From a virus: 64,000 bases of DNA. The notes under the pieces are model-generated. The model was not told the origin of the DNA. It saw nothing but the letters and a program-made list of their open reading frames with translations, and ran no database searches. The number at the start of each line of letters is the position of its first letter. Within the stretch, counting starts at the first letter, position 1. Shown one piece after another: positions 8,727 through 26,383 of this stretch. The stretch spans positions 1-64,000 of IMG/VR virus record IMGVR_UViG_3300037258_000301; one strand, written 5' to 3'. The position numbers and the translations under genes were made by a program.

Positions 8727-8951
8727 ATGTTCGACTTGACGAAGCTGGACGTCCTGCACATCGAACTGCTGACCGTGGCCAGTCAAGAGGGGATGCTGCC
8801 GGCGAAGACCCTCGGCCCATTCCCGGATCAGTGGGCGGCCGTGGAGGACCTGCTCGACGAGGATCTCCTGACCGAGATCACCGATGCGGGGGGTGACGTG
8901 ACCGGCTGGCAGCTCACCCGCGCTGGACAGGCCGTGACCAATCAGCTCTGA
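8727..8951 (+). CDS. small protein, possible winged helix
   Basis: C-terminal WQLTRAG wing-like motif. Confidence 0.6.
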   Translation: MFDLTKLDVLHIELLTVASQEGMLPAKTLGPFPDQWAAVEDLLDEDLLTEITDAGGDVTGWQLTRAGQAVTNQL

Positions 8952-8954
8952 GGC

Positions 8955-9002
8955 TTGGTGGTGTCAGGGAGACGCGATACCGTTCTTCCTGTCACCCGCT
9001 CC
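8955..9002 (+). promoter_or_regulatory. repeated early promoter (TTGGTG-N17-TACCGT...GTCACC)
   Basis: Copy of motif. Confidence 0.8.
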
Positions 9003-9022
9003 CCCATCTTCTGGAGAACATC

Positions 9023-9208
9023 ATGACTCGCAGGATTACCCCTCTCGACGAGCTGTACGCGATCCAGCAGCGTGATCCCGACGGTGGCGAGGTCGAGCCC
9101 ACCGAGGAGGACTACCGCCAGTTCCGCGTGTGGATCGTGGCGAACTACGGCATCGATGCCATGCACGACTACCTCGACGGCAACTGGGCCCCCGAACCTG
9201 AGGTGTAG
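9023..9208 (+). CDS. hypothetical protein
   Basis: GGAG RBS after promoter. Confidence 0.7.
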   Translation: MTRRITPLDELYAIQQRDPDGGEVEPTEEDYRQFRVWIVANYGIDAMHDYLDGNWAPEPEV

Positions 9209-9237
9209 TCCCCGCTCTCTCCCGAAAGGAAGATCGA

Positions 9238-9684
9238 ATGAGCATCACCCATCAGTGGTTCACCACCATGACCGAGGTGCGTGACACCTTCAACGACGAT
9301 GGCAACCATTTCTTCGACGAGTCCACCCTGCGCTTCTTCAGCTCCGAGATCGACGACGAGATCTACGGCGGCCGGGTGTTCGTGACCTCTGAGCAGCAGG
9401 AGGAGACCTATCCGCGCCTGTACACGGTGCGCGTGATCGAGTATCAGGACGAGGACAAGCACTACACGGTGGCCAGCCTCGGCTTTGGGGCTCTCGACAC
9501 TCACGAGGAGGCCCATGACGCTGCCTATCGTGCCGGTGAGCTGGCCGATAGTGGTCTGCTGCCCGGCTACTTCCAGTATGGCCAGGAAGCTGCCCTGGCC
9601 CGTGCCCTGGACATCCCGGATACTAGTGACTGTGACGGGTGGGTATTCGACCACACCACGACCCTCGGATTCCGGCAGGTCTGA
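9238..9684 (+). CDS. phage hypothetical protein (DUF7447-like)
   Basis: HFF...TLRFF.S...FVTSE...R.YTVR pattern. Confidence 0.65.
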   Translation: MSITHQWFTTMTEVRDTFNDDGNHFFDESTLRFFSSEIDDEIYGGRVFVTSEQQEETYPRLYTVRVIEYQDEDKHYTVASLGFGALDTHEEAHDAAYRAGELADSGLLPGYFQYGQEAALARALDIPDTSDCDGWVFDHTTTLGFRQV

Positions 9685-9686
9685 TC

Positions 9687-9989
9687 ATGTATTTCGACGA
9701 AGAGCAGTGGCTGGCGCACTACTTCGCTACCGAGGTGTGCGCGCAATGCGGGTGGGATGCTGATCAGCATGAGGTCCGCTACGACGCCTTCGACAAGCCG
9801 CATGCCATATGCCTGGACCCGATCCCCGATCATTACTCAGATCGCCAGTTCCGACGTGAGCTGGCGCAGCGGGTCGCGATCAGCACCGGCGCGACCCGGA
9901 AGGGACGAGTGCATAACGAGATCACCGGAACCGTAGGTGGCCCCATCATCCAGGCCGGCACCATCGAGAATGGCATCACCTTCAACTGA
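9687..9989 (+). CDS. hypothetical protein
   Basis: TGATCATG junction; CxxC...H. Confidence 0.7.
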   Translation: MYFDEEQWLAHYFATEVCAQCGWDADQHEVRYDAFDKPHAICLDPIPDHYSDRQFRRELAQRVAISTGATRKGRVHNEITGTVGGPIIQAGTIENGITFN

Positions 9990-9999
9990 GGAGCAGATC

Positions 10000-10251
10000 A
10001 TGGGACGGACCGCACGGACCGAGGAGCCACGGATCACGGCCCCTCCGCAGCCCTACGAGTTGGCCACCTTGCTCGTCATGCTGCGCAAGGTCCGCGACAC
10101 CGTCATCCTTGGTGAGATGTTCACCGACGATCTGACCAACGTGATCGCGGACCTGGAGCGGTACGCGCAGCAGATCAACAACTGCTCGCACATCGAACCC
10201 CACAACCGACACTGGTGTGGCCACCCGTTGTGTCCGGAAGGTTCCTCATGA
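10000..10251 (+). CDS. hypothetical protein
   Basis: GAGGAG RBS. Confidence 0.7.
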   Translation: MGRTARTEEPRITAPPQPYELATLLVMLRKVRDTVILGEMFTDDLTNVIADLERYAQQINNCSHIEPHNRHWCGHPLCPEGSS

Positions 10252-10586
10252 ACGATGCTCACCCCGGTGGCATGCCGAACATCGGCGGGCCGCCGGGGCT
10301 GGGTCAGCAGGTGCACCGCTACGCCCCGCTGGCCGAAGCCACGCTTCAGCTCGTGGTGGACGCGATCGACGAACTCGCGCACGCTCAGCCGGGTCATATG
10401 GCGGTCGTGGTGACCACCCTGCCGGCTCAGGAGGGGCAGCGCATGCAGTCCCGCCGGGTGAAGGGTTCCTACCACGTGCTGGCTTATGCCGTGTGGTCCA
10501 CCGGTGATATCACGCCGATCATCTGGGGTGATCTCGGCCCCCTCACCATCCCGGCCAATATTCCTCAGGATTGGACATTGATATGA
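10248..10586 (+). CDS. hypothetical protein
   Basis: ATGA overlap. Confidence 0.7.
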   Translation: MNDAHPGGMPNIGGPPGLGQQVHRYAPLAEATLQLVVDAIDELAHAQPGHMAVVVTTLPAQEGQRMQSRRVKGSYHVLAYAVWSTGDITPIIWGDLGPLTIPANIPQDWTLI

Positions 10587-10777
10587 GCACACTGGGTTCG
10601 ATCAGCACGCGGTACATCGATCAGCTGCGGCGCGCCGCTGAGGTAACGGATAGTCCTGAGCATCGCGAGTGGTTCACCACGGTTGCTGATGATCTGGAAG
10701 CGCGGCGTCCGGTGCGCAACCTTGATGAGGTCATGCGGTTCGTCAAGGAGAATCAGGAGGGTTCGACTCCCTCCTGA
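10583..10777 (+). CDS. hypothetical protein
   Basis: ATGA overlap. Confidence 0.65.
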   Translation: MSTLGSISTRYIDQLRRAAEVTDSPEHREWFTTVADDLEARRPVRNLDEVMRFVKENQEGSTPS

Positions 10778-10781
10778 TCCA
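10750..10781 (+). ncRNA. tRNA minihelix-like hairpin (acceptor-like stem stacked on T-arm)
   Basis: GAATCAG-GAGGG-TTCGACT-CCCTC-CTGATCC-A. Confidence 0.45.
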
Positions 10782-10857
10782 CAGAGTGACCACCATCCGG
10801 TCAACCCGGACTGGGGTTGGCGCTCTTGCGGTTGCCAGATCCCTCAAGCTGGATGGA

Positions 10858-10924
10858 GTGCTGTAGCTCAACGGCAGAGCGAGGACCGCAAGTCCACACG
10901 TCAGGTTCGACTCCTGACCAGCAC
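10858..10924 (+). tRNA. atypical tRNA-like element, GCA (Cys) at anticodon position
   Basis: GTGCTG/CAGCAC acceptor, TAGCTCAACGGCAGAGC D-arm, TCAGG-TTCGACT-CCTGA T-arm; short anticodon arm, no U33, no encoded CCA. Confidence 0.6.
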
Positions 10925-11039
10925 GCGGGCACGGGATTAGCCTTCCCTACGGATGTGAGCCCTCCAATCCGGTAACAGGTAGGTGAGTCTGATCAGCTCA
11001 TCGGTTTTCGATGGAACGTTGCCGGGTTGTTAGGCCCGC
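10925..11039 (+). ncRNA. putative multi-branch structured RNA
   Basis: GCGGGC/GCCCGC outer stem enclosing GGATT/AATCC, TAACA/TGTTA, GGTGAG/CTCATC. Confidence 0.4.
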
Positions 11040-11129
11040 TGCCTAGTCGGTGTGCAATGTCGGCACCGCGTTCAAGTCAGGCCAACGCACTACTTGATAC
11101 AACAACGAATTCGGATTGTGAGGGAGACC

Positions 11130-11435
11130 ATGACTGAGTGGTCGATGTACGGCTCGTATGACGAGAAGCGAGATCACTGGCTCGCCCTCGGCGACCGGCG
11201 CCACGTCTACTTCCACGGCTGCACGACACCGGCCCCGGTCATGGTCACCGAAGACCCCCAGGGCACGCACCTCGGCTGGATCGACAGTGACGGCACCACG
11301 CCCGTGATGATCCTGCGCAAGGAGATCTTCGAGATTCAGTTCCCCTACGGCAGCAGAGCGGAAGTGGAGCGCGGCGCAGGCCGTGTCGTGCAGCTCTCGA
11401 TCCGGCTGAAAGAGGACGACGGTGGGCGCGGCTGA
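11130..11435 (+). CDS. hypothetical protein
   Basis: GGGAG RBS. Confidence 0.7.
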   Translation: MTEWSMYGSYDEKRDHWLALGDRRHVYFHGCTTPAPVMVTEDPQGTHLGWIDSDGTTPVMILRKEIFEIQFPYGSRAEVERGAGRVVQLSIRLKEDDGGRG

Positions 11436-11853
11436 AATCTTGGACATCCAGGCAACGATGCTGGATCGGCTGACCCCACTCTCAGGAATATGTCGCATAC
11501 ACCGAAAGGCAATGATCATGAAATCCATGCCCCCCACCACCACGATCCGCGCCGATGAGGTCACGGTGGCCATGACCGTGTATCGCAACGAGACCCTGGA
11601 GAACTGCCGGCGTACTGGAGAGGTTGTCGCCAGTGTGTCGACCAGCATCGAGGGTAGCGACGGGCCCGTCGTGCTCATCCGCACCGAGCAGCGTCCGGAC
11701 TGGTCCTGGTCCCTGTATCCGCATGAACTCGTTCTGATCGACGCCGCGACGGCACGATAGAAATACACCACACACTCGATCCGGCTGAAGGAGGTCATGA
11801 TGAGCGCTGCGGAAGTCCTGGACATCCAGGCAACGATGCTGGATCGGTTGACC
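11396..11853 (+). repeat. about 80-bp imperfect direct repeat (11396-11475, 11775-11853) with identical 29-bp core
   Basis: TGGACATCCAGGCAACGATGCTGGATCGG at 11441-11469 and 11819-11847. Confidence 0.9.
11422..11760 (+). CDS. hypothetical protein (may start at 11518)
   Basis: N-terminus duplicates next gene; TGATCATG at 11513. Confidence 0.6.
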   Translation: MGAAEILDIQATMLDRLTPLSGICRIHRKAMIMKSMPPTTTIRADEVTVAMTVYRNETLENCRRTGEVVASVSTSIEGSDGPVVLIRTEQRPDWSWSLYPHELVLIDAATAR

Positions 11854-12798
11854 ACCTCCGGATCGAAGTTCTCCGAGTTGATTGCTCGGCAGAGCACCTA
11901 CCGGCAGGACGGCACCCGTACGACCTTGGAAGATGGGTTCGCCGCGACCAATGACGTCACGGTGTTGCTGTCGATGGCCGAGGCGTATCACGTCAGCAAG
12001 GACATGACGCCGCTGATCCGGTGGGCGGCCTCCCAGCTGGACGAGACCGACCACTTCACCCGAGAGATGGCCCCGTCGGAATACGGCTTCGTTCGTTTCG
12101 AGGAGCCGTTGGTCATGCACGACGCGCGCGGCAAGATCATGAAGGCCAATCTGCTGCTGTGGGGACCGCGTCCGATCGAAGACGCCCTCGGCAAGCGCAA
12201 CGTGGTGATCTTCTACTACTTCAACGACCTGAACGATCCTGACGACTACACCGAGGAGCTGTTCGAGGACACTCCTCGTCACGAACTCGTGACTATGTTC
12301 AACCGTTACATGCTCTCGGGGTTCGAGCACGCCGACGAGCACATGCGGTTGGGACCGGCCATGGTGATGCCCAGCGAGAAGGTACTCAGGTGGCTGACCG
12401 ATGACGGCGCCACCCCCTCCGAGTACACCAACATGCTGCGCCAGTTCTACGCCTTCTGGTTGCTCACCCAGCAGACGATCGCTCGCCGGGAAGACGCGGA
12501 TGTGCCTCGGCCGTTCGCGCGTCGAGCCAAGCGCATGGGGCTGCCCCCGAGGGTCTCCGTCATCCACCTGCGGCATGAGTCCGCCCCCGGTGAGGGTCTC
12601 GGTGAGACGGATGTGCGGTGGTCGCACCGGTGGCTCGTGCGGAGTACCTGGCAGTGGCGGGCCTGCGGACAGGATCATCCTTACGCACAGCCCTACGAGA
12701 AGGGCTGGCACTGCCGGACCTGGGTGGCCGCCCACGTCAAGGGGCCGAAGGGTCTGCCGCTCGTGCAGTCGACCAAGGTCTACTCGCTGGACCGGTAG
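11797..12798 (+). CDS. actinophage hypothetical protein
   Basis: AAGGAGG RBS; C-terminal HRWLVR...WV..HVKGP motif. Confidence 0.8.
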   Translation: MMSAAEVLDIQATMLDRLTTSGSKFSELIARQSTYRQDGTRTTLEDGFAATNDVTVLLSMAEAYHVSKDMTPLIRWAASQLDETDHFTREMAPSEYGFVRFEEPLVMHDARGKIMKANLLLWGPRPIEDALGKRNVVIFYYFNDLNDPDDYTEELFEDTPRHELVTMFNRYMLSGFEHADEHMRLGPAMVMPSEKVLRWLTDDGATPSEYTNMLRQFYAFWLLTQQTIARREDADVPRPFARRAKRMGLPPRVSVIHLRHESAPGEGLGETDVRWSHRWLVRSTWQWRACGQDHPYAQPYEKGWHCRTWVAAHVKGPKGLPLVQSTKVYSLDR

Positions 12799-12828
12799 TT
12801 CGATGGAGTGTAGTAGCGCCCTGACTCC

Positions 12829-15087: not shown

Positions 15088-15465
15088 ATGACTGATCTCG
15101 GGGAACCCACGATCGAGCGACTCAAGACCGTCCAGGCTCAGTTGGGCATGACGGATACTCACCTGTGCTGGCTCGGTGAACGCACCTTCGTCCTAGCCCA
15201 CACCGACGAGGAGCGCGCCACCATCGATCTGGAGGACTGCGAGCTGCATCAGTGGCTGATCGACTGCACCGCAGCTCCGGCGGTGGCGGGCTACTACAGC
15301 GTCGAACCGCATATTCCCGACCTCGACAGCGAACCCTATGGGGTCGCTCCGTGGCAGTTCCTGAGCATGAGCCGCATGGATCGGGGCCCGTGGCTGGCCG
15401 GCGACGGTCAGTCCTGGGTCTACACCGGCACGCCGGACTGGCGGGCAGATGGTGAGGAGTCATGA
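15088..15465 (+). CDS. hypothetical protein
   Basis: ORF track; overlaps next gene. Confidence 0.65.
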   Translation: MTDLGEPTIERLKTVQAQLGMTDTHLCWLGERTFVLAHTDEERATIDLEDCELHQWLIDCTAAPAVAGYYSVEPHIPDLDSEPYGVAPWQFLSMSRMDRGPWLAGDGQSWVYTGTPDWRADGEES

Positions 15466-16064
15466 CTGACGCCGAGCGGCTGGTGGCGTTCATCAACGCG
15501 CGCCTGGATGAGGATGAGCAGACCGCGTCCATGGCGACCGACGGCCCGTGGGTGGCCCGCAGCACCGAGGTCGGGTGGTGTGTCGACGTCGACCCCATCA
15601 CCCGAGGCATCTACGTGTTCGGCCCAAGCGATACCCCCGCCGTGGATATCTGGCATGTGGCCCGCCAGAACCCTCTGCGGATCCTGCGCGGGGTCGCGGC
15701 CAAGCGCGGGATCATCCAGGACTGGCTCGGCGAGAACGCCCCCTCCTACCCCAGTCTCAGTGACGATGAACTACACATCGCCCGTAGGCATCCGGCCTAC
15801 GAGTATGCGACCACCGAGGGACAACGCAAGGCGTGGGACTACTCCCACGTGCCGCCCGAAGGTGACGGGTGGGAACGCAACATCACCAGCGACGACGACG
15901 AGGGGTGGGAGCGCTTCTCCTACACCGAGGAGTCCTACTGGCGCCGGCTTCGCCCGCAAGGCCCTCGGGTGTGGAATCCACCCACGCCGCGTCACCTTCA
16001 ACGGCTGGCTTCGGAATGGTCGGATCATCCCGACTTCGAGGAGGAGTGGAGTATCGATGAGTGA
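15462..16064 (+). CDS. DUF6221-like actinophage protein
   Basis: FINARLDEDE...HVARQNPLRILR.V.AKR...LA.EW.DHPDFEEEW. Confidence 0.75.
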   Translation: MTDAERLVAFINARLDEDEQTASMATDGPWVARSTEVGWCVDVDPITRGIYVFGPSDTPAVDIWHVARQNPLRILRGVAAKRGIIQDWLGENAPSYPSLSDDELHIARRHPAYEYATTEGQRKAWDYSHVPPEGDGWERNITSDDDEGWERFSYTEESYWRRLRPQGPRVWNPPTPRHLQRLASEWSDHPDFEEEWSIDE

Positions 16065-17637: not shown

Positions 17638-18366
17638 TCACGGATCGCTACGAGGGGTAGTCCCCAGGGGGCTTGACCACTTCAGCACGGTTGATCCGTG
17701 GCAGACCTTGACGGCCACTTCCACCACTCGACCATCCACGAGACTGACGGTGCGCACCACCTGTGTGGCGATGACCTGACCGGTCAGTCCCAACGCCTTC
17801 TTTTCCCACGGGAGAGCAAACCGGGAAGTCACTTCCTCCAGCACTCGGTCCTGGGCGACCCCCAGTCGCTCGGCTGCGAGTTCTCGGGAGCCACCGGTCG
17901 AGGTCGGATCACCAAGTTCGGGTGTCACCGCAAACACGAACGCGGGGTAATACGAGGTCGACACGTGCACGGGCACCCCGTCACGGCTGACCACCCGCCG
18001 ACGAAGGTGAACCGGAGTTCCTGGCGCCACCTCAAGGCGGGAAGCGACGGTCTCGTCCGCGCCGACGGCCCCGATCTCCAGGATCTGGGAGATCTCTCCG
18101 AGCCCCAACGCCTTGCCGGTAGCCGCGTAGACGTCGAGGCGATTTGAGGTGTTCGAGCTGCTCGACAGCGCGACCCAGGTGCCACGGCTATCGGCTTGGG
18201 TCAGGCCCTCCATCTTGAGCACCCCGTAGGCCCGCGCCGCAGTCTTCATGGAGACCCCCCATGTCTCCATGGTGTTCTGAAGAGTCGGCATCCTCTCGCC
18301 TGGGCGCATCTCTCCGCGATGAATCTTGTCTCGGTAGTGCTCGGCGATCTCGGGATAACCGGCCAT
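17638..18366 (-). CDS. GntR/HutC-family regulator with UTRA domain (KorA/TraR-like transfer repressor)
   Basis: Y.EIA...I..GE.RPGERMPT...WGVS..TA.RAY..L..EGL wHTH plus UTRA-like C-terminus; divergent from transfer genes. Confidence 0.9.
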   Translation of the reverse strand: MAGYPEIAEHYRDKIHRGEMRPGERMPTLQNTMETWGVSMKTAARAYGVLKMEGLTQADSRGTWVALSSSSNTSNRLDVYAATGKALGLGEISQILEIGAVGADETVASRLEVAPGTPVHLRRRVVSRDGVPVHVSTSYYPAFVFAVTPELGDPTSTGGSRELAAERLGVAQDRVLEEVTSRFALPWEKKALGLTGQVIATQVVRTVSLVDGRVVEVAVKVCHGSTVLKWSSPLGTTPRSDP

Positions 18367-18390
18367 GTCGCTGATTCTCCTCTCATCAGG

Positions 18391-18476
18391 TTAGTACTTC
18401 GCTGTACCTTTGCCTTGCGGTACTATACCCTCCGTACTAGATTGCGGGATAGAGTCGATCGACTTTAACCGTACGG
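18391..18476. promoter_or_regulatory. divergent promoter/operator region
   Basis: TTGCGG-N17-TAGATT on +; five GTAC-centred boxes. Confidence 0.55.
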
Positions 18477-18717
18477 GGAGAGAGGTTCGCTTGATGACCG
18501 CCACACGGGCCAACGAGGCACCGGGCAACGCAGTCTCAGGGACTCACTCCTTCTCCACCATCCAGTCCAGCCCCCATCGTGAACTGCCGAGTCGCGTCAC
18601 CACCCTCGGCGACTCCCCCGCCCCGCCCCTGCCGGTCACCTCCACGGTGACCCACGAGCTGGGGGAGTCGCCGACCCCGTCTTGCACTACCAACATCGAA
18701 CGGAGGGGTGTCTGATC

Positions 18718-20034
18718 ATGTGGCCGTTCACCTCTCACACCACTGACGTGTCCGCGTGGCGCCGAGTACGTAACGCCCGCATCGAGCGTCGGGCCACGGC
18801 ACTGACCAACCTTGCCAGTGCTACTCAGAATCTGGCCGAATCCGAATTCACGTTGACCGCTGCTCGGGATCTACAAGCAGATGTTCGTGAGCATCCCACG
18901 CCGTCGCCCAGCAGGAAGACGATGACCACGGCGGATCGGCTCTGGACCGTGATGATCGGGATCCTGGCCAATGGTGCGGCGATCTTCATGGCGATCATCG
19001 CACTGGGGCTCGGTACCACCTTCTGGGCCGCCCACCTGCCATCCAGCGCTCAGTCGGTACACATATTCGCGGTGCCACTGCCCATCGATCTCACCACCAT
19101 GATTCCGGTGGGGTTCGAGTCCACCATCTGGGTGCTCACCGCCATGGCCACCGTGCTGGCCTGCTTCTCGTTGCGCTCGGGTGCCTACACACGCCCGATG
19201 TGGGCAATCGCCTCGGTAATCGCCCTGATCAACGGAGTTCACAACTCGACCTACGACCTGCTTGGCGGCCTCGGTCTCGGAGCCCTCTCGCTGGCCTCCC
19301 CGTATCTGGTGCACAAGTACGTGCTGTTCGTGCGGTCTATGACGCATGGCAAGACGATTCTGGAATCCATCATCGGAAACCAGTCCCGGTGGAAGTTCAT
19401 CGGGAAGGTTGCGGCGGCTCTCGCGCACGCTCTGATGAAGTCGGCCGTCTCGATCCTGGACTTCATCCTGCACCCGGTCTTGACCATCCTCGCCGTCCTG
19501 CTGTGGCGCATGCACCGAGGCATCAGCTACGGCCATGCCCACGGGGTCGTCGTCACGCATCTGCGTAACCGGCGGGCCGGCTGGGAGAAGCAAGGTGACC
19601 GCCAGATCCAGACCTACCAGCTGCGGCTGATTGATCTGATCGACCCGGTGGAGATCGCCGCTCCGCGCTCTCCTCGGAAGCGCTCCAGCACTCCGGTGCC
19701 GCGCGCCGCTCAGGCGGAGGCCAAGGAGGTCCCGGTGGCCGTCATCCCGCCCACGGAGGAGCCCGAGCCCACGAATCTGGTGTCGATCGAGCAGCTCACC
19801 GGTCGGCCGGAATGGGTCACTCATGACATGACCCCGGCCGAGGCCATGACGGCCCACCTGAATCACCTGGGTGAGACCCAGGGCGTGCTGCTGGAACGGT
19901 GGGCGAACAGCGTCGGTTACCGCGACAAGTACAGCCCCGGCCTGGGTCGCAAGACGCTCTACACGTGGCGCAAGCAGCAGGCGAGCGTCACCGTCACCGA
20001 TGACGCTTCTGACGTCGCGGTCGGGGGCGAGTGA
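18718..20034 (+). CDS. SpdB2/DUF2637-like multi-TM spread protein
   Basis: Several TM helices, Pro-rich linker, soluble C-terminal domain; first gene of operon divergent from GntR. Confidence 0.6.
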   Translation: MWPFTSHTTDVSAWRRVRNARIERRATALTNLASATQNLAESEFTLTAARDLQADVREHPTPSPSRKTMTTADRLWTVMIGILANGAAIFMAIIALGLGTTFWAAHLPSSAQSVHIFAVPLPIDLTTMIPVGFESTIWVLTAMATVLACFSLRSGAYTRPMWAIASVIALINGVHNSTYDLLGGLGLGALSLASPYLVHKYVLFVRSMTHGKTILESIIGNQSRWKFIGKVAAALAHALMKSAVSILDFILHPVLTILAVLLWRMHRGISYGHAHGVVVTHLRNRRAGWEKQGDRQIQTYQLRLIDLIDPVEIAAPRSPRKRSSTPVPRAAQAEAKEVPVAVIPPTEEPEPTNLVSIEQLTGRPEWVTHDMTPAEAMTAHLNHLGETQGVLLERWANSVGYRDKYSPGLGRKTLYTWRKQQASVTVTDDASDVAVGGE

Positions 20035-20470
20035 TGGAACGCATGACGCTCTCGGTGACGGTGGACCGTCATGGCGGAACGGTGTCCGACCGTCAGTGCG
20101 ATGACGGTGACGGTGGAACGGTGACGCTTGTGGAACGGTCATGGAACGTCAGTGGCCGTTCCACCGTCACCGTCATGACGGAACGCTATGACGGTGACGG
20201 TGTCCAGGCGTCACTGCGGGAACGCCCAGCTAGGACGCCAGTGACGGTCAACGCTGACGGTGGCTTGACCGTTCCGTTGACCGCCACTGACGGACGGTCT
20301 CGCACCGTTCTCCTGACGGGCCCGGATCAGCTCAGCGTCCTTGACGGCTTGCGTGAGTGGCTGATGCACCGTCCCGGCGTGACGCTCGCGTCACTGACGT
20401 TCCGTGGTAATTCGTGGAACGCCGAAGTGACGACCACCGTCATTGAGAACGCTGACGGAACGGTGCGGGC
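19985..20470. repeat. dense field of TGACG/CGTCA and GAACG/CGTTC motifs (candidate clt-like site)
   Basis: Hand count about 29 TGACG and about 14 GAACG (both strands) in about 480 bp. Confidence 0.8.
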
Positions 20471-20690
20471 GTCGCGCCAAGAGCGTCCCGAGTGGCTGAG
20501 CGACGAACTACTGGCCGGTACCGCCTCCACGGCGATGTTCGCCTATCTCGATCACAACCCGGACACCGATGAGGTCGAGTTGACTCGATGGGCGCGTCAA
20601 TATTTCCGCATTCGGCCGGGCTACGGCCGGAAAATCAAGCTCCGCTGGCGGCAACAACGGACATTTCTGGTGATTCGTCACTCACAGTGA
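20031..20690 (+). CDS. protein with repeat-encoded N-terminus and C-terminal domain paralogous to upstream gene
   Basis: RPEW...AM.A.L.H...L.RWA...PG.GRK...WR.Q shared with 18718-20034. Confidence 0.65.
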   Translation: MMERMTLSVTVDRHGGTVSDRQCDDGDGGTVTLVERSWNVSGRSTVTVMTERYDGDGVQASLRERPARTPVTVNADGGLTVPLTATDGRSRTVLLTGPDQLSVLDGLREWLMHRPGVTLASLTFRGNSWNAEVTTTVIENADGTVRASRQERPEWLSDELLAGTASTAMFAYLDHNPDTDEVELTRWARQYFRIRPGYGRKIKLRWRQQRTFLVIRHSQ

Positions 20691-20834
20691 AGTTTTTAAA
20701 AACAAAACTTCGGAGGGTGTCGATCTCCGAAGTCCTGAACAGCACAAACAGCTTTCGCAGTCAGTAAGACAAAAACTTTCCAAAACTTCTCCACCCGGAT
20801 TTCCGCTACATACCGTCACAGAAAGGGCGGCACA

Positions 20835-21341
20835 GTGAAGGAAGCAACCAGCGCGGCGGTGGGGTTGGTGGCACTTGTTGCCGTCATCCTCATCTGGACC
20901 ATCGGCCACAAACACACTCCGCGCCTCGTCCTGGCCCTGACCATCACCGCGAGCGTCTGTTTTCTCTCTACCCGCATCGGCACCTGGATCAAGGACGTCA
21001 TGCATGACGTCAACAGTTGGATGGGTGACGTGCTGGGATGGCTGTTCGGTGCGACCTTCGTCGGGTTCATCGCCTTCGTCTGCGCCTACATCATCGTGAT
21101 CGACCTCAAGGCCAGTGGCGGGGGCGGCCGTGGTGGCGGGGGCGGCGGAGGAGGGGGTGGTGGTGGCAGCTTCCTGCGGCGCCTCAAGGGGCACTCCGTC
21201 TCTGACCGCACCCTCGTCGCCGGGGGTGTCCTGCCTTTCGCCGCGATCGCCCTGCCGGGCCTGATCGGCCTGGGCATCCTCACCGTCCTGAGCTGGATCT
21301 CCGGCACCGTGGCCGGCGGCATCGACCTGTTGTTCCGCTGA
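20835..21341 (+). CDS. Spd-like membrane protein with poly-Gly loop
   Basis: 4-5 hydrophobic segments; GAAAGG RBS. Confidence 0.7.
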   Translation: MKEATSAAVGLVALVAVILIWTIGHKHTPRLVLALTITASVCFLSTRIGTWIKDVMHDVNSWMGDVLGWLFGATFVGFIAFVCAYIIVIDLKASGGGGRGGGGGGGGGGGGSFLRRLKGHSVSDRTLVAGGVLPFAAIALPGLIGLGILTVLSWISGTVAGGIDLLFR

Positions 21342-21700: not shown

Positions 21701-23077
21701 ATGCCGCTCTGGTTCATCCTGATCTTGCTGGTCGCGCTGTACTTCGGCATGAAGAAGGGCGCTTTCCGGTTGGGTAGCTCGATCGCCAACGCCTACAAGA
21801 GCGGCAAGGCCGATGCCGGAGCCTCGAAAGCTGCGCGGCGCAGCCTCACCTCCGATGCGGTCGACGCCGGCCACGGTGGCACCACCCGCAAGGCCGCCTC
21901 TACTACGGCCGCCGCTCTGGGCGCCACCGTCAGTGGCACCCGGGTGCACGCGCACGCCGCCCGGCGGGGTTTCGCCGAAGGGTGGAAGGAGGGCAAGGCG
22001 AAGGTCTTGGCCCGCCGGGACCCCAGCAAGGATTTCGTGCCGACCGGTACGCACGCCACTGCGAAGGAAGGTGATGGGGTGCCCTGGTGGCGTCGCTGGG
22101 GCAAGAACAAAGGCAAGTCGGCCAAGTGCGCGGTCATCGTCACCACCCACCTGCCCGATGGCAGCATCAAACAGGCCCCCTGCGGCAAGCGCTACTCCCT
22201 GCTGCCGGACCCGAACGGGGTCATTCTCACCAACTGCGGCGCCCACCCGCTCGACACCGAACTTGCCCCGCCAGCTCCCGCACCCGTCCGGGCCCCCACT
22301 GCCGCCCCCGGCCCCGGTCGCCCGACGATCGAACCGATGGAATTCGAGAAGTGGGTGGCCTGCACCAACCTGATACCAGCCGGAGTCAATCCCTTCCTCC
22401 CACCTGGTACTCCAGAGCACCCGTCGAGGATTCCCTGCGGGGAGTTGTATGAACTCGTTCCCAATGCCGCAGGCGTCATGCCCACCTCGTGTGCGCGTTG
22501 TCGCGAATTTTTCCCTACCCGCACCAAAGAGAACACAAAGGAGAACCCCTCCATGACCACACCTACCGTTCCCGCTGCCCCCGCACCGGCAACTCCTGCA
22601 CCGGCTGCCCCCGCACCGGCCGGCGAGGTCACGAGCATGACTGAGTTGTTGGGTGAGCTGGAGCGCATCCAGAAGGAGAACCTCGCCGAACTCGACGATG
22701 CCAAGGCTGACGCCGCTCGGGCCACCACCGACATGGAAGATGCCGGGGCTGACCTGAGCTTGGCCAAAACTGAGGCCGCCTCGATCGACACGATGGTGGG
22801 GTGCCTGAGCCGTCCCGAGCTGAAGCTGGACCCCGCCTCGATCGGGGACGTCTCCGCTCAGATCGACGGGGCACAGCAGCGCATCAAGCTGGCCGCTGAC
22901 CGTCTCGGCGCCGCCGAGGCTCGGTTGAACCTGGCCAACAGCCGCGCCCAGATCGCCGAGGGTCGTCTGGCCGCCGCCAACAAGGCGCACGCCAGCATCA
23001 AGGCGCGTCACGACGTGCACCGTGAGGCTCACGCCGCCTCCCCGGTGCCCGCTGCCGGCGCCGAGTTCTACGAATAA
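21701..23077 (+). CDS. membrane-anchored Pro-rich/coiled-coil transfer-associated protein
   Basis: N-terminal TM, Cys clusters, C-terminal coiled coil; directly upstream of traB-like gene. Confidence 0.7.
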   Translation: MPLWFILILLVALYFGMKKGAFRLGSSIANAYKSGKADAGASKAARRSLTSDAVDAGHGGTTRKAASTTAAALGATVSGTRVHAHAARRGFAEGWKEGKAKVLARRDPSKDFVPTGTHATAKEGDGVPWWRRWGKNKGKSAKCAVIVTTHLPDGSIKQAPCGKRYSLLPDPNGVILTNCGAHPLDTELAPPAPAPVRAPTAAPGPGRPTIEPMEFEKWVACTNLIPAGVNPFLPPGTPEHPSRIPCGELYELVPNAAGVMPTSCARCREFFPTRTKENTKENPSMTTPTVPAAPAPATPAPAAPAPAGEVTSMTELLGELERIQKENLAELDDAKADAARATTDMEDAGADLSLAKTEAASIDTMVGCLSRPELKLDPASIGDVSAQIDGAQQRIKLAADRLGAAEARLNLANSRAQIAEGRLAAANKAHASIKARHDVHREAHAASPVPAAGAEFYE

Positions 23078-23107: not shown

Positions 23108-26100
23108 ATGGTCAACTCCCGACCTGGCATGAAGTCGAAGAAGGGATTCCTGGGGAAGTTGTTCTCCCTGGGTGGTCGCGGTCTTCGGCATGTCGTCAAG
23201 AAGGGTGTCCACCACGGCCACAAGCACCGGGTTCGTCTGGTGCCGGTGTACGTGGGCATCGTGATGTGGCTGCTTGCTTCCGTGCTCTACCTGGTCCCGC
23301 AAGGCTGGAAGACCGCATTCCTGCCGGTCGGTCTCACCGCGCTGGTGCTGTTCCTCTACGGACGGCACCGGCGCGGTGAGAAGCCCGCTCGTCCCATCCC
23401 CACCCGCCACCACCTCTACCTGTGGGTCTGCTGGGCCGGCGCCTCGGCATGGTTCATTCTCGCCGCGTTGTGGGGTCCGCTGACCCACTTGTTCTCCGGG
23501 GTGCTGCTGATCGGCGTGCTCGCCTCGGGAGTGCCCTACTGGTGGCACCGCTTTGCTCGCGCCCACTACCAGCCCGCGCCCGCGCCCGTCGCGGAGAAGG
23601 TTGTCGAGAAGGACACGGTCGAGCCAGAGATCGCCCTGTGGGTCAAGAAGGTCCAGAAGGACGGTGGCGCGGTCCCCGGTACCGAACTGGATGGCTTCGA
23701 ACGGCTGGAGAACGGCAATGGGTGGGAGAGCCCGTTGAAGTTCACCGACGACAAGGTGGGGATCGAAGAGGCGTTCGCTCAGCAGGTGCGGTTGAGTCGC
23801 ATCTACGACGTGCCGCTGCCCAACATCGTGCTGCGTCCCGCCCCGGACGGGCGTCCCACCCGAGGGCACATCACCGTGCTGCAACGCAACCCGCTGGCTA
23901 TCCCGACCCTGTGGGCTGGCCCTTCCATGACCGAGGACGGTACCTGCCGGATCGGTGTTCACCCCGACGGCCGGGAAGCCCGGATCCGCCTCTGGCGTCC
24001 CGACTCGGGCGCGGTGCACATGCTCATGGCCGGCTGCACCGACTCCGGAAAAGCGCTTGCACTCGATACTCCTGTTCCCACGCCGAATGGCTGGACGACG
24101 ATGGGCGAGTTGGCTGTGGGTGATCAGGTGTTCGATGAGCATGGGCAACCCACTCAAGTCATCGCCGCGACTGAAGTGATGATGGATCGTCCTTGTTATG
24201 AAGTCGAGTTTTCGGATGGCACCGTGATCGTCGCCGATGCCAAGCACCAGTGGGTGACGACTACCCATCAGGGGCGCCGTCAACAAAAGCCTCGTCGAGC
24301 AACTTTTCGTGATTCACCAGAGGCACGAGCACTCGTCTCCGACGTGACCACTTCCGTACTCGCCCAGCCCGATCGGCTCGTTTGTGTTCAGGACGTTGTT
24401 GACCTTGTGGGGAAGCGGTTCGAGGCACGTATCCGAACCATCATGGACAGGTTGCCGTCCGCCCCGAAGGCGGTTGAGCGATCAAGGACTCAGACTCGTG
24501 CTGGTTGTACTTACACGCATGTACAGCGCTATGCGGGCTGTTCGGCTCATGCCGTATACAAGGAGCTTGACCTGCGAGTCTCTGCTGATCGAGGCGCACA
24601 TCGAGTAGCTCCAGCAGATACTGGACCGATTACGACGGAGCACATCGCGGCAACGCTGCACCCAACGGGAGATGCCGGTCGGGTCAATCACGCAATTGAG
24701 CTTTGTGGTGCGCTGGAATACGCAGAAAAGGATCTTCCAGTTGCTCCCTACACCCTCGGTGCGTGGTTGGGTGATGGTGACTCTCGCGATCCGTCTCTTA
24801 CGGCATTCGATCCAGAAGTGCTTGATCGTGTTCGTGTGGACGGCTACCTCATCAAGGGGCGTAGCGAGGTGGGTCACTACGGCATTGTCATCGAAGGTAC
24901 TGAGCACGCCAAAGACGGATCTAGCATGACTGCGATCATGCGGAAGTTGGGAGTTCTCAGCAACAAGCACATCCCAGACATCTACCTACAGAGTTCTGTC
25001 GAGCAACGTCGCGCTCTTCTGGCTGGTTTGCTGGACACCGACGGTTACTGCTCGGTACATGGTGTGGTGGAGTTCGCGGTAACGGACCCTCGTCTGGCAC
25101 ATGATGCGTTGGAGCTAGTGCTAGGTCTTGGCTACAAGGCCACCTTCCGAGAGAAGCCCGTTCCGATGGGGCGTCCTGGACGTACCGTCGCGTACACGGT
25201 GGAATTCACTGCTCCGGAGCCGGTGTTCGGTCTCTCTCGCAAGGCGGTTAGGCAGCGTCCGATGAAGAGGCAGGCTCGATCGCAACGTCGGTACATCGTC
25301 GATGTGCGGTCGATCCCCTCTGTGCCTGTGCGCTGTATTCAGGTGAATGCTGTGAGCAGCCTCTATCTGGCAAGCCGAAGCTGTATTCCTACGCACAACA
25401 GCAGATTGACCGATTTGCTCCTTGCTGAGGAGCGGCATTCGACGCTGGTCTCCAGCTTCGTGATCGACCCGCAGGGTGGCCAGTCCCTGCCGGCCTGGCG
25501 TGATGCCGTGGCCGAGTTCGCCACCGACGCCGCCGAAGGCCGGGACCTGCTGGAGCATGCCGTCGATATCATGTTCTGCCGCAACAAGGTGCTGTCCAAG
25601 GAGGTCTGGTACGACGCCAAGGGTCGTGAGCGCGTCGGCAAGGACTTCTTCGAGCCCACCCCCGAGCGCCCGCTGATCTCGATCACCGTGGACGAGGCCC
25701 AGGCTATTCTGGCCGATCCCCGCGCGATCAAGGCCGCCGAGCAACTGGCCGGCATGGCCCGTAAGTGCGGCCTGGCACTGCGTCTGATCACGCAACTACC
25801 GCTGCTCGCGCAGCTGGGCAACTCGATGTATCTACGCGGACAAGTCGCGGCCGGCAACGTCATCGTGCTGCGTACCGCCGAGCGGCTCTCCGGGCAGGTC
25901 GCGTTCAACGGCGCCCTGCCCGGCGCCGACCCGGCCATGCTGCCTCGCGTGTGGCCGGACGGTTCCACCACGGCCGGTCTGGGCTACCTGCTGGGGGCCA
26001 GCGCCCACCAGTCCATGTACCGAACCGACTTCCTCAACCGGGAGAACGTCTACGACTGGGTGGTCTCCGGCGAGACCACCTACGTTGACGCGGCCTCACG

Positions 26101-26383
26101 TCCCCAGCCCGAGGCTCCCCGCCTGCACGCGGTACCCAACAATCCGGAGCCTCCTTCCGGTGATCAGCCGTGGCAGAGCGGTAGGGCCCGGGAACGGATC
26201 CTCGCCTACCTGGCCTCGTCCGAGACGGTTCGCCGGACCACCGTCATCGCCGCCGCCTGCGGTATCGACAAGTCCACCGCGTCCAACATGCTCCGCGTGC
26301 TGGTCGGCGAGGGTCTCGTGCGCGATCACGGGCGCGGGGACTGGTCGCACATCGATTTGGCATTCCAGTCCGCGTCCTACTGA
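23108..26383 (+). CDS. traB: TraB-type FtsK/SpoIIIE DNA translocase, intein-containing
   Basis: N-terminal TMs; Walker A AGCTDSGK|S split by intein; Walker B ISITVDEAQ; ARKCG...ITQ; C-terminal wHTH. Confidence 0.85.
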   Translation: MVNSRPGMKSKKGFLGKLFSLGGRGLRHVVKKGVHHGHKHRVRLVPVYVGIVMWLLASVLYLVPQGWKTAFLPVGLTALVLFLYGRHRRGEKPARPIPTRHHLYLWVCWAGASAWFILAALWGPLTHLFSGVLLIGVLASGVPYWWHRFARAHYQPAPAPVAEKVVEKDTVEPEIALWVKKVQKDGGAVPGTELDGFERLENGNGWESPLKFTDDKVGIEEAFAQQVRLSRIYDVPLPNIVLRPAPDGRPTRGHITVLQRNPLAIPTLWAGPSMTEDGTCRIGVHPDGREARIRLWRPDSGAVHMLMAGCTDSGKALALDTPVPTPNGWTTMGELAVGDQVFDEHGQPTQVIAATEVMMDRPCYEVEFSDGTVIVADAKHQWVTTTHQGRRQQKPRRATFRDSPEARALVSDVTTSVLAQPDRLVCVQDVVDLVGKRFEARIRTIMDRLPSAPKAVERSRTQTRAGCTYTHVQRYAGCSAHAVYKELDLRVSADRGAHRVAPADTGPITTEHIAATLHPTGDAGRVNHAIELCGALEYAEKDLPVAPYTLGAWLGDGDSRDPSLTAFDPEVLDRVRVDGYLIKGRSEVGHYGIVIEGTEHAKDGSSMTAIMRKLGVLSNKHIPDIYLQSSVEQRRALLAGLLDTDGYCSVHGVVEFAVTDPRLAHDALELVLGLGYKATFREKPVPMGRPGRTVAYTVEFTAPEPVFGLSRKAVRQRPMKRQARSQRRYIVDVRSIPSVPVRCIQVNAVSSLYLASRSCIPTHNSRLTDLLLAEERHSTLVSSFVIDPQGGQSLPAWRDAVAEFATDAAEGRDLLEHAVDIMFCRNKVLSKEVWYDAKGRERVGKDFFEPTPERPLISITVDEAQAILADPRAIKAAEQLAGMARKCGLALRLITQLPLLAQLGNSMYLRGQVAAGNVIVLRTAERLSGQVAFNGALPGADPAMLPRVWPDGSTTAGLGYLLGASAHQSMYRTDFLNRENVYDWVVSGETTYVDAASRPQPEAPRLHAVPNNPEPPSGDQPWQSGRARERILAYLASSETVRRTTVIAAACGIDKSTASNMLRVLVGEGLVRDHGRGDWSHIDLAFQSASY
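24053..25399 (+). mobile_element. class 3 intein with LAGLIDADG homing endonuclease (449 aa)
   Basis: Starts ALALDTP, block B HQW, block F VRCIQV, ends IPTHN|S; LGAWLGDG and LAGLLDTDG; codon usage shifts. Confidence 0.92.

What the first reader, a model, noticed from the sequence alone, without database searches (positions are those of the whole stretch)
19985..20470. Hidden TGACG/GAACG repeat field inside coding sequence (candidate clt/TraB loading site)
Seen: about 29 TGACG/CGTCA and about 14 GAACG/CGTTC pentamers by hand count in about 480 bp, on both strands and in different codon phases, where only one or two of each would be expected. This explains the odd T/V/D/G-rich N-terminus of ORF 20031. 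Established: TraB wHTH domains bind arrays of short repeats (clt). Inference: the DNA is a cis-acting binding array (clt- or centromere-like) overprinted on a gene; mixed orientation would be unusual for a clt.
Basis: partly seen in the sequence, partly recalled or inferred. Interest (0 to 1): 0.78.

Follow-up and report, generated by a model that had tools for sequence, protein, structure and literature searches.

The report
Docking-site array for phage membrane protein
A 480-bp stretch of a large actinobacterial phage holds about 45 copies of a short DNA word written through a gene, and comparison with related elements suggests these are docking sites for the DNA-binding tail of the membrane protein encoded just upstream, not for the nearby TraB DNA pump.

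Summary
It is the genome's only such cluster. The cores are TGACGGTG and GGAACGGT, on both strands and in several codon phases.

It is a real cis-acting array overprinted on ORF 20031:
- The frame stays open despite 23 out-of-frame TGA triplets.
- Against relatives, all three codon positions are equally conserved in the array. Flanking domains show the usual third-position decay.

The array starts at the stop codon of a SpdB2-like membrane protein (18682-20034). That protein ends in a ~65-aa three-helix domain ("C1"). In 11 of 13 related loci that extend past the gene (a 14th breaks off after 170 bp), the most repetitive 400 bp starts within 60 bp of that stop. The word differs between lineages and follows C1.

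The TraB reading fails a double dissociation. L003 and L012 have 92% identical TraB tails but different words. The window, L002 and L003 share one word with TraB tails only 20-35% identical.

Most likely the array docks the phage DNA onto the membrane Spd/TraB apparatus. This is a new variant of the SpdA/sps and TraB/clt theme. Earlier notes of this scan report similar arrays on other genomes.

The parts
17638..18366 (-). GntR/UTRA-family regulator, divergent from the module (TraR/KorA-like position)
   Evidence: Pfam GntR 1.6e-8 and UTRA 4.2e-17. The same divergent gene is present in L001, L006, L013, L014 and L016 but absent beside the module in L002, L003, L010, L012 and L015.
18682..20034 (+). 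SpdB2-like polytopic membrane protein (P0002; on record from the ATG at 18718). It has an N-terminal coiled-coil-like stretch, about 4-5 hydrophobic helices, a Pro/Ala/Glu-rich linker and the C-terminal domain C1.
   Evidence: Translation. Hydrophobic segments at residues 90-108, 126-161, 193-217 and 240-274. Homologues P0004-P0007. 21 of the 44 sequences scanned in the C1 alignment hit Pfam DUF2637; P0002 itself does not at E<0.01.
19804..19995 (+). Coding region of domain C1 (about 65 aa, three helices, basic third helix PGLGRKTLYTWRKQQ): the proposed reader of the array
   Evidence: A profile of C1 finds 46 representatives among 1.84 billion proteins, 44 of them convincing, and there the domain is always C-terminal. 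AlphaFold model pLDDT 87.9 with helices at 20-31, 36-45 and 56-72. C1 identity tracks the array motif.
19985..20470 (.). The repeat array: about 48 GA(A)CG cores, one per 10 bp, with cores TGACGGTG and GGAACGGT on both strands. The dense part is 19985-20320.
   Evidence: Equal conservation at all three codon positions against L003 and L002.
20101..20176 (.). Perfect 21-nt inverted repeat (34-nt spacer) in the best-conserved block of the array
   Evidence: Conserved in L002 and L003. The single-strand DNA fold of 20040-20300 has z = -6.7.
20031..20690 (+). ORF 20031 (P0001, 219 aa), translationally coupled to the upstream gene (GTGATG overlap). Residues 1-88 are array-encoded and predicted disordered, 89-147 form a small beta-alpha-beta domain, and 150-219 form C2, a paralogue of C1.
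   Evidence: (C1/C2 BLASTP E 3e-9). None of 23 TGA triplets is in frame, P about 9e-5. C2 shows protein-type conservation: nucleotide identity at codon positions 1/2/3 is 0.69/0.66/0.46.
20651..20834 (.). Intergenic region after ORF 20031. It holds the most AT-rich 60-bp window of the whole genome (63% AT) and a CTTCGGAG...CTCCGAAG hairpin.
21701..23077 (+). 458-aa protein of the module with no family assignment (only a weak SMC-like coiled-coil hit); counterparts of 353-464 aa occur in related loci
23108..26383 (+). TraB/FtsK-like ATPase interrupted by a LAGLIDADG intein, with a C-terminal wHTH
   Evidence: Pfam LAGLIDADG_3 and HTH_IclR. NCBIfam plasmid_TraB gives 2.8e-4 here, and for the intein-less counterparts 2.2e-11 (L001) and 6.9e-34 (L014), all below the curated cut-off.

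Best explanation
The field is a cis-acting docking array for the small C-terminal three-helix domain (C1) of the SpdB2-like membrane protein encoded immediately upstream, and probably also for its soluble paralogue C2 on ORF 20031. Many copies of a 6-8-bp word (TGACGGTG / GGAACGGT) are packed at about one per 10 bp in either orientation. C1 domains hang on a roughly 50-residue flexible linker from the membrane protein, which may oligomerise as SpdB2 does, so many of them could bind side by side. This would tether this one spot of the phage's double-stranded DNA to the membrane next to the TraB-like translocase of the same operon. The likely purpose is to present the DNA for TraB/Spd-type movement between hyphal compartments or cells. 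The array is written through the start of ORF 20031, whose first ~90 residues are a disordered passenger peptide that only has to stay open.

Shown: the array is real, unique and under DNA-level selection, and its position and co-variation with C1 hold across related loci. Inferred: that C1 binds it, the membrane tethering, and the transfer or spread purpose.
For: 1. Uniqueness and density.
2. DNA-level selection. Between the window and L003, nucleotide identity at codon positions 1/2/3 is 0.88/0.93/0.68 in C1 and 0.69/0.66/0.46 in C2, but 0.70/0.69/0.72 in the dense array. Between L002 and L003 the array gives 0.86/0.91/0.92.
3. The frame is kept open: none of 23 TGA triplets is in frame. Residues 1-88 have pLDDT about 25, while C2 reaches 76-93 in the same model.
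4. Conserved position. In 11 of 13 related loci that extend past the gene (a 14th, L006, breaks off 170 bp after the stop), the most repetitive 400-bp window of the whole locus starts within 60 bp of the stop codon of the C1 gene (robust z 8-42). First motif copies lie between -43 and +61 bp of the stop.
5. The word changes with the C1 lineage:
   - GLGRKTL with TGACGG
   - GLGRTVL with TGTCACGG (three loci)
   - GFGRKAL with GTCACGG plus GTCCCGG
   - DYGRNVRRQW with CAACCG
   - DYGRG/N with CCGGTACC
   - DYGRKIKLEW with CGGCAC
   Most words share an ACCG core.
6. Double dissociation from TraB. L003 and L012 have TraB 86% identical overall and 92% in the last 75 aa, C1 50% identical, and disjoint motifs (TGACGG 21 against 0, GTCACG 2 against 19, GTCCCG 0 against 15). 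The window, L002 and L003 share one motif, with C1 81-94% identical and TraB tails 20-35% identical.
7. C1 folds confidently into three helices with a basic third helix (4 K/R, no D/E). The top weak structural matches are DNA-binding three-helix domains: BEN, transposase HTH and homeodomain.
8. Published context. SpdB2 of pSVH1 has the same layout, binds DNA, interacts with the TraB C-terminus and has homologues in actinophages. SpdA, which binds a motif inside its own gene, was proposed as the interface between DNA and the translocation apparatus (PMC4447253, PMC4170104).
Against: - No binding experiment exists.
- C1 has no significant structural or sequence relative (best VIA Z 5.0, Foldseek E above 1; PDB profile search empty). 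DNA binding is therefore inferred.
- C1 is encoded right next to the array, so physical linkage alone would make them co-inherited. The window, L002 and L003 arrays are alignable and thus not independent.
- Two family members lack an adjacent array. L013 shows none in the 890 bp available. L014 carries its array 3.4 kb away, after the TraB gene.
- P0002 itself does not reach Pfam DUF2637, and no BLAST link to plasmid SpdB2 proteins was found.
- The genome's most AT-rich window lies 180 bp beyond the array, which would also suit an origin.
- The transfer or spread purpose is untested for any phage of this kind.
Confidence: 0.55

Rival explanations
1. The binding partner is the same (C1/C2), but the purpose differs. 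The array would be a centromere-like or positioning site, or a stability site, like sps/SpdA2 of pIJ101 or stbDRs/StbA of R388. It would hold or distribute the element's DNA in the mycelium, or gate transfer, rather than load it for transfer.
For: SpdA2 binds a motif inside its own gene, and losing it affects segregational stability but not transfer (PMC4170104). StbA binds ten 9-bp repeats and balances stability against conjugation (PMC3098194). The nearest model in the protein atlas is a cluster partly annotated StbA-like, and the fifth is KfrA_N.
Against: The atlas and Foldseek similarity to StbA did not hold on realignment (7pc1: Z 2.5, rmsd 9.6). The window looks like a large virulent-type myovirus, and no partition ATPase or plasmid-maintenance genes were seen near the module. 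The array always sits inside the tra/spd-like operon.
Confidence: 0.2
2. It is a classical clt: the array is the loading site read directly by the C-terminal wHTH of the TraB-like translocase, as the 8-bp TRS repeats are on pSVH1.
For: A TraB homologue with a C-terminal wHTH lies in the same operon. Known clt sites are clusters of 5-9-bp direct and inverted repeats (PMC3583192). No other repeat cluster was found at the 3' ends of the TraB genes in eight loci.
Against: Double dissociation between the motif and the TraB tail. The position is 3 kb upstream of traB and tied to the stop codon of another gene in 11 loci. The array is far larger and denser (about 45 copies in 480 bp) than characterised clt sites (3-9 repeats in 54-175 bp).
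Confidence: 0.08
3. It is an iteron-type origin of replication for a plasmid-like mode of the element, with the adjacent AT-rich stretch as the unwinding element.
For: The iteron of the Streptomyces theta plasmid pWTY27 is also made of 7-8-bp words in both orientations plus long inverted repeats. The most AT-rich 60 bp of the genome lies at 20651-20710. In 4 of 11 loci the most AT-rich window of the locus falls 0.6-1.2 kb downstream of the C1 gene's stop codon. The region has strong cruciform potential.
Against: No Rep, primase or helicase gene adjoins the array in any locus. The invariant neighbour is a membrane protein. There is no inflection of cumulative GC skew at 20 kb. The AT-rich windows sit in ordinary intergenic gaps at variable distances and reach only 50-55% AT in most loci.
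Confidence: 0.08
4. It is an operator field for transcriptional control of the module, bound by the divergent GntR/UTRA repressor or used for autoregulation by C1/C2.
For: A GntR/UTRA regulator stands beside the module in 6 loci. TraR of pSVH1 binds a specific site in the spd operon (PMC4447253). StbA also represses through its repeats.
Against: Several loci with full arrays have no adjacent GntR gene (L002, L003, L010, L012, L015). About 45 sites spread over 480 bp inside a coding region, 1.6 kb from the divergent promoter region, is unlike an operator. Autoregulation by C1 as a side effect is not excluded.
Confidence: 0.05

Closest known systems
sps / SpdA2 of Streptomyces plasmid pIJ101 (Thoma et al. 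2014, PMC4170104)
   Same: A short DNA word sits inside a coding region of a tra/spd-type mobile element and is bound by a small DNA-binding protein of the same locus. The sps half-site GTGACG resembles the word here (GTGACGG). SpdA was proposed to link the DNA to the TraB/Spd apparatus (PMC4447253).
   Different: sps is a 12-bp palindrome (CGTCACGTGACG) present 1-3 times and nearly invariant between plasmids. It is absent from this genome. Here there are about 45 non-palindromic copies and the word changes between lineages. SpdA is a soluble 117-163-aa protein with an N-terminal binding domain. Here the domain is C-terminal and fused to a membrane protein. No sequence similarity to plasmid proteins was found.
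clt / TraB (TRS repeats) of Streptomyces conjugative plasmids pSVH1, pIJ101, pJV1 and pWTY27 (PMC3583192; Vogelmann et al. 2011, as cited there)
   Same: A cluster of short direct and inverted repeats acting in cis in an element that carries a TraB-family dsDNA translocase with a C-terminal wHTH.
   Different: Known clt sites are 54-175 bp with 3-9 repeats, lie at or beside the 3' end of tra, and are read by the TraB wHTH. This array is about 480 bp with about 45 copies, lies 3 kb upstream, is tied to another gene's stop codon, and its word does not follow the TraB wHTH.
SpdB2 spread protein of pSVH1 and DUF2637 (PF10935) membrane proteins (PMC4447253)
   Same: The upstream protein has the SpdB2 layout: N-terminal coiled coil, about four membrane helices and a cytoplasmic C-terminal part, encoded in a translationally coupled operon with TraB. 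SpdB2 binds dsDNA and its homologues occur in actinophages. 21 of the 44 sequences scanned in the C1 alignment hit DUF2637.
   Different: SpdB2 is reported to bind DNA non-specifically, and no cognate array is described. Here a discrete C-terminal domain co-varies with a dedicated array. P0002 itself is below the Pfam threshold. I did not test whether SpdB2 belongs to DUF2637, because pSVH1 is not in the collections.
StbA / stbDRs of plasmid R388 (PMC3098194; bioRxiv 10.1101/2022.04.29.490116)
   Same: An HTH protein binds an array of short repeats (2 x 5 copies of 9 bp). It positions the plasmid and sets the balance between maintenance and conjugation.
   Different: StbA is soluble, its repeats are direct and regularly spaced in a promoter, and conjugation there uses a relaxase and type IV secretion. 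Structural similarity of C1 to the StbA domain is not established (Z 2.5).
Streptomyces plasmid-phage pZL12 / phage ZL12 (GQ919031)
   Same: A tailed phage genome carrying GntR, a DUF2637-like membrane protein (pZL12.73c, matched by P0013 at 1e-4), a large protein and an FtsK/TraB-like gene in the same order. It is reported to conjugate as a plasmid (PMC4170104, PMC3583192).
   Different: pZL12.73c has a different C-terminus, and no dense array follows it (best window z below 5).

Membership tests
[quoted passage not shown] | Cluster of short direct and/or inverted repeats on an element that encodes a TraB-family translocase | tested here: met
   Array. TraB homology: NCBIfam plasmid_TraB, 2.8e-4 in the window and 2.2e-11 / 6.9e-34 in counterparts.
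[quoted passage not shown] | Located at or overlapping the 3' end of the tra gene (pWTY27, pSVH1) or otherwise a compact 50-200-bp site | tested here: not met
   The array ends 2.6 kb before the traB start and spans about 480 bp. In 11 loci it is tied to the stop codon of the SpdB2-like gene. No repeat cluster was found at TraB 3' ends.
[quoted passage not shown] | The repeats are the specific target of the TraB C-terminal wHTH (helix alpha-3) | tested here: not met
   This is a comparative test only. Near-identical TraB tails go with different words (L003/L012), and TraB tails 20-35% identical go with the same word (window/L002/L003). Biochemistry was not done.
[quoted passage not shown] | Required in cis for transfer | not testable with these tools
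   Needs mating or mobilisation assays.
sps / SpdA system | 12-bp palindrome CGTCACGTGACG (with or without a central T), 1-3 copies, in or next to spdA | tested here: not met
   The palindrome and its spaced variants are absent from the whole genome. Only the half-site GTGACG recurs: 12 copies on both strands.
sps / SpdA system | A SpdA homologue (conserved N-terminal ~40-50 aa) encoded at the site | tested here: inconclusive
   tblastn of P0001 and P0002 against 72,556 plasmids found no relevant match. No SpdA sequence was available for a profile comparison.
SpdB2-like / DUF2637 membrane proteins (for the upstream gene) | Match to Pfam PF10935 | tested here: inconclusive
   P0002 has no hit at E<0.01. 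21 of the 44 sequences scanned in the C1 alignment do hit it, best 4.2e-39.
SpdB2-like / DUF2637 membrane proteins (for the upstream gene) | N-terminal coiled coil, about four membrane helices and a cytoplasmic C-terminal domain, in a coupled operon with TraB | tested here: met
   Sequence and hydropathy, operon order, and the description of SpdB2 in PMC4447253.
Iteron-type replication origin | Repeat array adjacent to the gene of its initiator (Rep), plus an AT-rich unwinding element | tested here: inconclusive
   No Rep-like neighbour by Pfam, PHROGs or NCBIfam. An AT-rich window is present 180 bp downstream. No GC-skew inflection.
Helix-turn-helix DNA-binding domains (for C1) | Recognisable structural or profile match to a known HTH family | tested here: inconclusive
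   The three-helix model has pLDDT 88. The best VIA match is Z 5.0 (BEN domain with DNA) and Foldseek E is above 1. There are no Pfam, NCBIfam or PDB sequence matches.

The most novel reading that the evidence does not exclude
C1 would be the founding member of an undescribed family of sequence-specific DNA-docking domains fused to SpdB2-like membrane proteins. Each would co-evolve with its own array of 20-50 short words written across the next gene. This pair, not a TraB-read clt, would be the cis/trans specificity determinant that marks the element's DNA for TraB/Spd-type movement. Large tailed actinophages such as this one would then use it to spread their genomes through host mycelium without virions.
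Probability: 0.4. Interest if true: 0.8.

Novelty: new variant of a known kind. Interest (0 to 1): 0.68.

Why it matters
Streptomyces-type conjugation is thought to need only TraB and its clt, and the roles of the Spd proteins, and how they engage the DNA, remain open questions. This locus offers a concrete and testable answer for one lineage. A spread-type membrane protein would carry its own sequence-specific DNA-binding tail and its own large docking array, exchangeable as a cassette independently of TraB (compare L003 with L012). The natural specificity variants (at least six words) make swap experiments straightforward. The locus is also a clear example of a cis element overprinted on a gene where DNA-level selection overrides protein-level selection. 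It also bears on whether large tailed actinophages can move as naked dsDNA between hyphal compartments.

Tried and rejected
- **Amino-acid repeat or chance:** rejected. Motifs lie on both strands and in several phases, third codon positions are as conserved as the others, and the density is 14 sd above the genome mean.
- **Second array in the genome:** the window at about 91.9 kb with 11 CGTCA is ordinary coding sequence.
- **Close relatives in databases:** megablast against phages and plasmids gave nothing. tblastn of P0001 and P0002 against phages and plasmids gave nothing relevant. P0016 against plasmids and P0039 against phages also gave nothing.
- **More loci through the search for related loci:** single proteins gave nothing. 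Alignment A2 gave one locus, L007. A4 gave only a duplicate of L004.
- **StbA-like fold for C1:** suggested by the atlas and by a weak Foldseek row, but not upheld (Z 2.5, rmsd 9.6).
- **TRS-like repeats at TraB 3' ends:** none seen in eight loci.
- **pSVH1 record for a direct SpdB2 comparison:** not in the collections.
- **Vogelmann et al. 2011:** not held in the library, so TRS details are cited second-hand from PMC3583192 and PMC4170104.
- **Promoter and terminator scan of 18300-21000:** nothing above chance.
Full report
**What is there.** The window is the first 64 kb of a single 151,624-bp contig at 62-63% G+C, with nearly all genes on one strand. The contig encodes a portal, a major head protein and an endolysin. 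Its portal is 36-41% identical to those of large Rhodococcus, Gordonia and Mycobacterium cluster-C-type phages. It is therefore a large tailed actinophage with no close sequenced relative.

Around the finding lies a conjugation-type block:
- a divergent GntR/UTRA regulator (17638-18366, minus strand)
- a 450-aa membrane protein, P0002 (18682-20034)
- ORF 20031-20690, P0001 (219 aa)
- two small ORFs
- a 458-aa protein
- a 1091-aa ATPase with a LAGLIDADG intein and a C-terminal wHTH

The ATPase and its intein-less counterparts in related loci match NCBIfam plasmid_TraB at 2.8e-4, 2.2e-11 and 6.9e-34. All are below the equivalog cut-off, so they are distant TraB-family members.

**The observation.** The hand counts are exact: 29 TGACG/CGTCA and 14 GAACG/CGTTC in 19985-20470. 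Genome-wide, 500-bp windows average 2.0 (sd 1.96) and 1.4 (sd 1.36). The runner-up window has 11 and is plain coding sequence. The real words are longer: TGACGGTG (10 copies against 0.1 expected) and GGAACGGT (5 against 0.02). With the looser core GA(A)CG there are 48 copies, 31 plus and 17 minus, or one per 10 bp. The commonest spacing is 6 bp. A perfect 21-nt inverted repeat sits in the middle, and the single strand would fold far better than shuffles (z -6.7).

**Is it coding, and what is selected?** ORF 20031 overlaps the stop of the upstream gene (GTGATG). The 440 nt of array inside it contain 23 TGA triplets, 13 and 10 in the two wrong phases and none in frame (P about 9e-5). The other five frames are closed by 3-13 stops. 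The frame is therefore being kept open.

I aligned the window with the two loci that share its array (L003, L002) and compared nucleotide identity by codon position.

| Region (window vs L003 unless stated) | Pos 1 | Pos 2 | Pos 3 |
|---|---|---|---|
| C1 | 0.88 | 0.93 | 0.68 |
| C2 | 0.69 | 0.66 | 0.46 |
| Middle domain | 0.59 | 0.59 | 0.46 |
| Dense array | 0.70 | 0.69 | 0.72 |
| Dense array, L002 vs L003 | 0.86 | 0.91 | 0.92 |

The flanking protein domains show the usual third-position decay and the dense array does not. Selection in the array therefore acts on the DNA and not on the peptide. In an AlphaFold model of P0001, residues 1-88 (the dense array) have pLDDT about 25. A small beta-alpha-beta domain follows at 89-147, and the C-terminal domain reaches 76-93. 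The alignment is shallow, but the contrast within one model is informative. Short paralogues P0017 and P0018 consist of the middle and C-terminal domains only, without the array-encoded extension.

**The neighbour that always comes with it.** P0002 has an N-terminal coiled-coil-like stretch, four or five hydrophobic helices, a Pro/Ala/Glu-rich linker of about 50 residues and a C-terminal ~65-aa domain that I call C1. P0001 ends in a paralogue, C2 (BLASTP E 3e-9).

A profile of C1 finds only 46 representatives among 1.84 billion proteins. Two are spurious. In all the others the domain is C-terminal. Most carry 2-5 predicted membrane helices, and 21 of the 44 sequences scanned in the C1 alignment match Pfam DUF2637.

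Nearly all end in A-[VS]-G-(G)-E-stop. At the DNA level this is a GGGAG-type ribosome-binding site plus TGA for the coupled downstream ORF. This reading is my inference.

C1 models confidently (pLDDT 87.9) as three helices with a basic third helix. It has no significant structural or sequence relative. The best weak matches are DNA-binding three-helix domains (BEN Z 5.0, transposase HTH, homeodomains). A hint of StbA-like similarity from the atlas did not survive realignment.

**Comparative test.** I retrieved 14 loci encoding C1 proteins. One of them, L006, is truncated 170 bp after the gene. In 11 of the other 13, the most repetitive 400-bp window of the entire locus begins within 60 bp of the C1 gene's stop codon (robust z 8-42). 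The first copies lie between -43 and +61 bp of the stop, and the arrays run 300-450 bp into the next ORF.

The word differs by lineage:

| Loci | Word | Third-helix segment of C1 |
|---|---|---|
| Window, L002, L003 | CACCGTCA (= TGACGGTG) | GLGRKTL |
| L001, L009, L011 | ACCGTGACA | GLGRTVL |
| L012 | GTCACGG plus GTCCCGG | GFGRKAL |
| L007 | GCAACCGC | DYGRNVRRQW |
| L010, L016 | ACCGGTACC | DYGRG/N |
| L015 | ACCGGCAC | DYGRKIKLEW |

Most words share an ACCG core.

Two exceptions exist. L013 shows no array in the 890 bp available. L014 carries a 22-copy GCGAGACG array 3.4 kb away, beyond its TraB gene.

- L003 and L012 are sister elements. Their TraB proteins are 86% identical and the last 75 residues 92% identical, with an essentially unchanged putative recognition helix. 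Their arrays are disjoint: TGACGG 21 against 0, GTCACG 2 against 19, GTCCCG 0 against 15. Their C1 domains are only 50% identical, although the membrane parts of the same proteins are well conserved.
- Conversely, the window, L002 and L003 share the word and 81-94% identical C1 domains. Their TraB tails are 20-35% identical, and the membrane part of P0002 is unrelated to that of P0006.

C1 plus array therefore behaves as an exchangeable cassette whose joint lies in the linker of the membrane-protein gene.

The caveat is that C1 is physically adjacent to the array, so linkage alone predicts co-inheritance. But if TraB had to read the array, exchanging the cassette without TraB would break the system. 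The wholesale replacement of 20-48 copies by a new word also requires a trans-factor that changed with it, and C1 is the only DNA-binding candidate present in every locus. The GntR gene is missing beside the module in five loci with full arrays.

**Mechanism proposed.** Published work on pSVH1 shows the following (PMC4447253):
- SpdB2 has an N-terminal coiled coil, four membrane helices and a C-terminal domain.
- It oligomerises, forms pores and binds dsDNA.
- It contacts the TraB C-terminus.
- It has homologues in actinophages.

SpdA2 of pIJ101 binds a motif (sps, CGTCACGTGACG) inside its own gene, and SpdA was proposed as the interface between the DNA and the translocation apparatus.

Here the two roles appear merged. 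A SpdB2-like membrane protein carries a sequence-specific tail on a flexible tether. That would explain why either orientation and irregular 6-14-bp spacing are tolerated. A very dense array next to its gene would give high-avidity capture of that one locus at the membrane beside TraB.

I rate "real, selected binding array" at about 0.9, "read by C1/C2 rather than TraB" at about 0.7, and the full statement including the transfer or spread purpose at 0.55.

**Rivals.**
- **Positioning or stability role (0.2).** The same C1 binding could serve positioning or stability, as in sps/SpdA2 or stbDRs/StbA.
- **Direct TraB clt (0.08).**
- **Iteron origin (0.08).** This is not excluded. pWTY27's iteron is also built of 7-8-bp words in both orientations, and the genome's most AT-rich 60 bp lies 180 bp past the array. 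However, no Rep-like neighbour exists in any locus, GC skew shows no inflection, and the AT-rich windows in other loci are ordinary intergenic gaps.
- **Operator field (0.05).**

**Comparison with the known, and novelty.** The array fails two defining features of clt, namely position and co-variation with the TraB wHTH. It also lacks the sps palindrome, which is absent from the genome.

It works like those systems, as a cis array plus a dedicated binder in a TraB/Spd module, but differs in four ways:
- The binder is a new domain fused to the membrane protein.
- The array is an order of magnitude larger.
- The array is overprinted on the next gene.
- Its specificity diversifies.

The one experimentally studied phage with such a module, pZL12, has the DUF2637-like gene but neither C1 nor an array. 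I found no paper describing C1 or these arrays. I therefore class it as a new variant of a known kind.

Earlier notes of this scan describe similar arrays next to membrane proteins with DNA-binding tails on at least five other genomes. I saw them after reaching this reading, and they are not independent evidence.

Noticed in passing
window 20651-20834: The most AT-rich 60-bp window of the whole 151.6-kb genome (63% AT) lies in the intergenic gap just after ORF 20031, together with a CTTCGGAG...CTCCGAAG hairpin. In 4 of 11 related loci the most AT-rich window of the locus also falls 0.6-1.2 kb downstream of the C1 gene's stop codon.
   Followed up: partly
window 20014-20036, and the C-termini of P0004-P0049: Nearly all C1 proteins end in A-[VS]-G-(G)-E-stop. 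At the DNA level this is a GGGAG-type Shine-Dalgarno sequence plus TGA overlapping the start of the next ORF, so translational coupling to the array-bearing ORF is conserved across the family.
   Followed up: partly
L003 9596-10300 vs L012 8000-8700: Two sister elements (TraB 86% identical, same gene order) differ by a swapped C1-plus-array cassette. The window shares its cassette with L002 and L003 but has an unrelated membrane part. The recombination joint therefore lies in the linker inside the membrane-protein gene.
   Followed up: yes
L014 10950-11060 and 11370-11740: In this phage contig (portal, MuF and protease lie next to GntR, a DUF2637-C1 gene, a 318-aa gene and FtsK) no array follows the C1 gene. 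Instead TTCCAGTG-type repeats lie directly after the FtsK stop. A 22-copy GCGAGACG array lies 0.4 kb further on, across the end of a 221-aa gene and the start of a 91-aa membrane-protein gene on the other strand.
   Followed up: partly
L017 (Streptomyces phage ZL12, GQ919031) 6938-12825: The known conjugative plasmid-phage pZL12 has the same gene order: GntR, small genes, the DUF2637-like membrane protein 73c, the large protein 72c and the FtsK-like 71c. Its membrane protein has a different C-terminus and no dense array. Only a small GGGGCGGGG/CCCCGCCCC cluster lies at 8400-8560.
   Followed up: partly
P0017, P0018 (representative proteins, contigs not fetched): Short soluble paralogues (136-147 aa) consist only of the small beta-alpha-beta domain plus a C2-type domain, without the array-encoded N-terminal extension seen in ORF 20031.
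   Followed up: no
window 24053-25399: The TraB-like ATPase is split by a LAGLIDADG intein near its Walker A region. Its counterparts in L001, L002, L003, L012 and L014 (664-765 aa) lack it.
   Followed up: no
window 15462-16064: A DUF6221 protein (Pfam 2.5e-21) lies just upstream of the module. Related loci L002, L003, L010 and L012 carry a WhiB gene a few genes upstream of the C1 gene.
   Followed up: no
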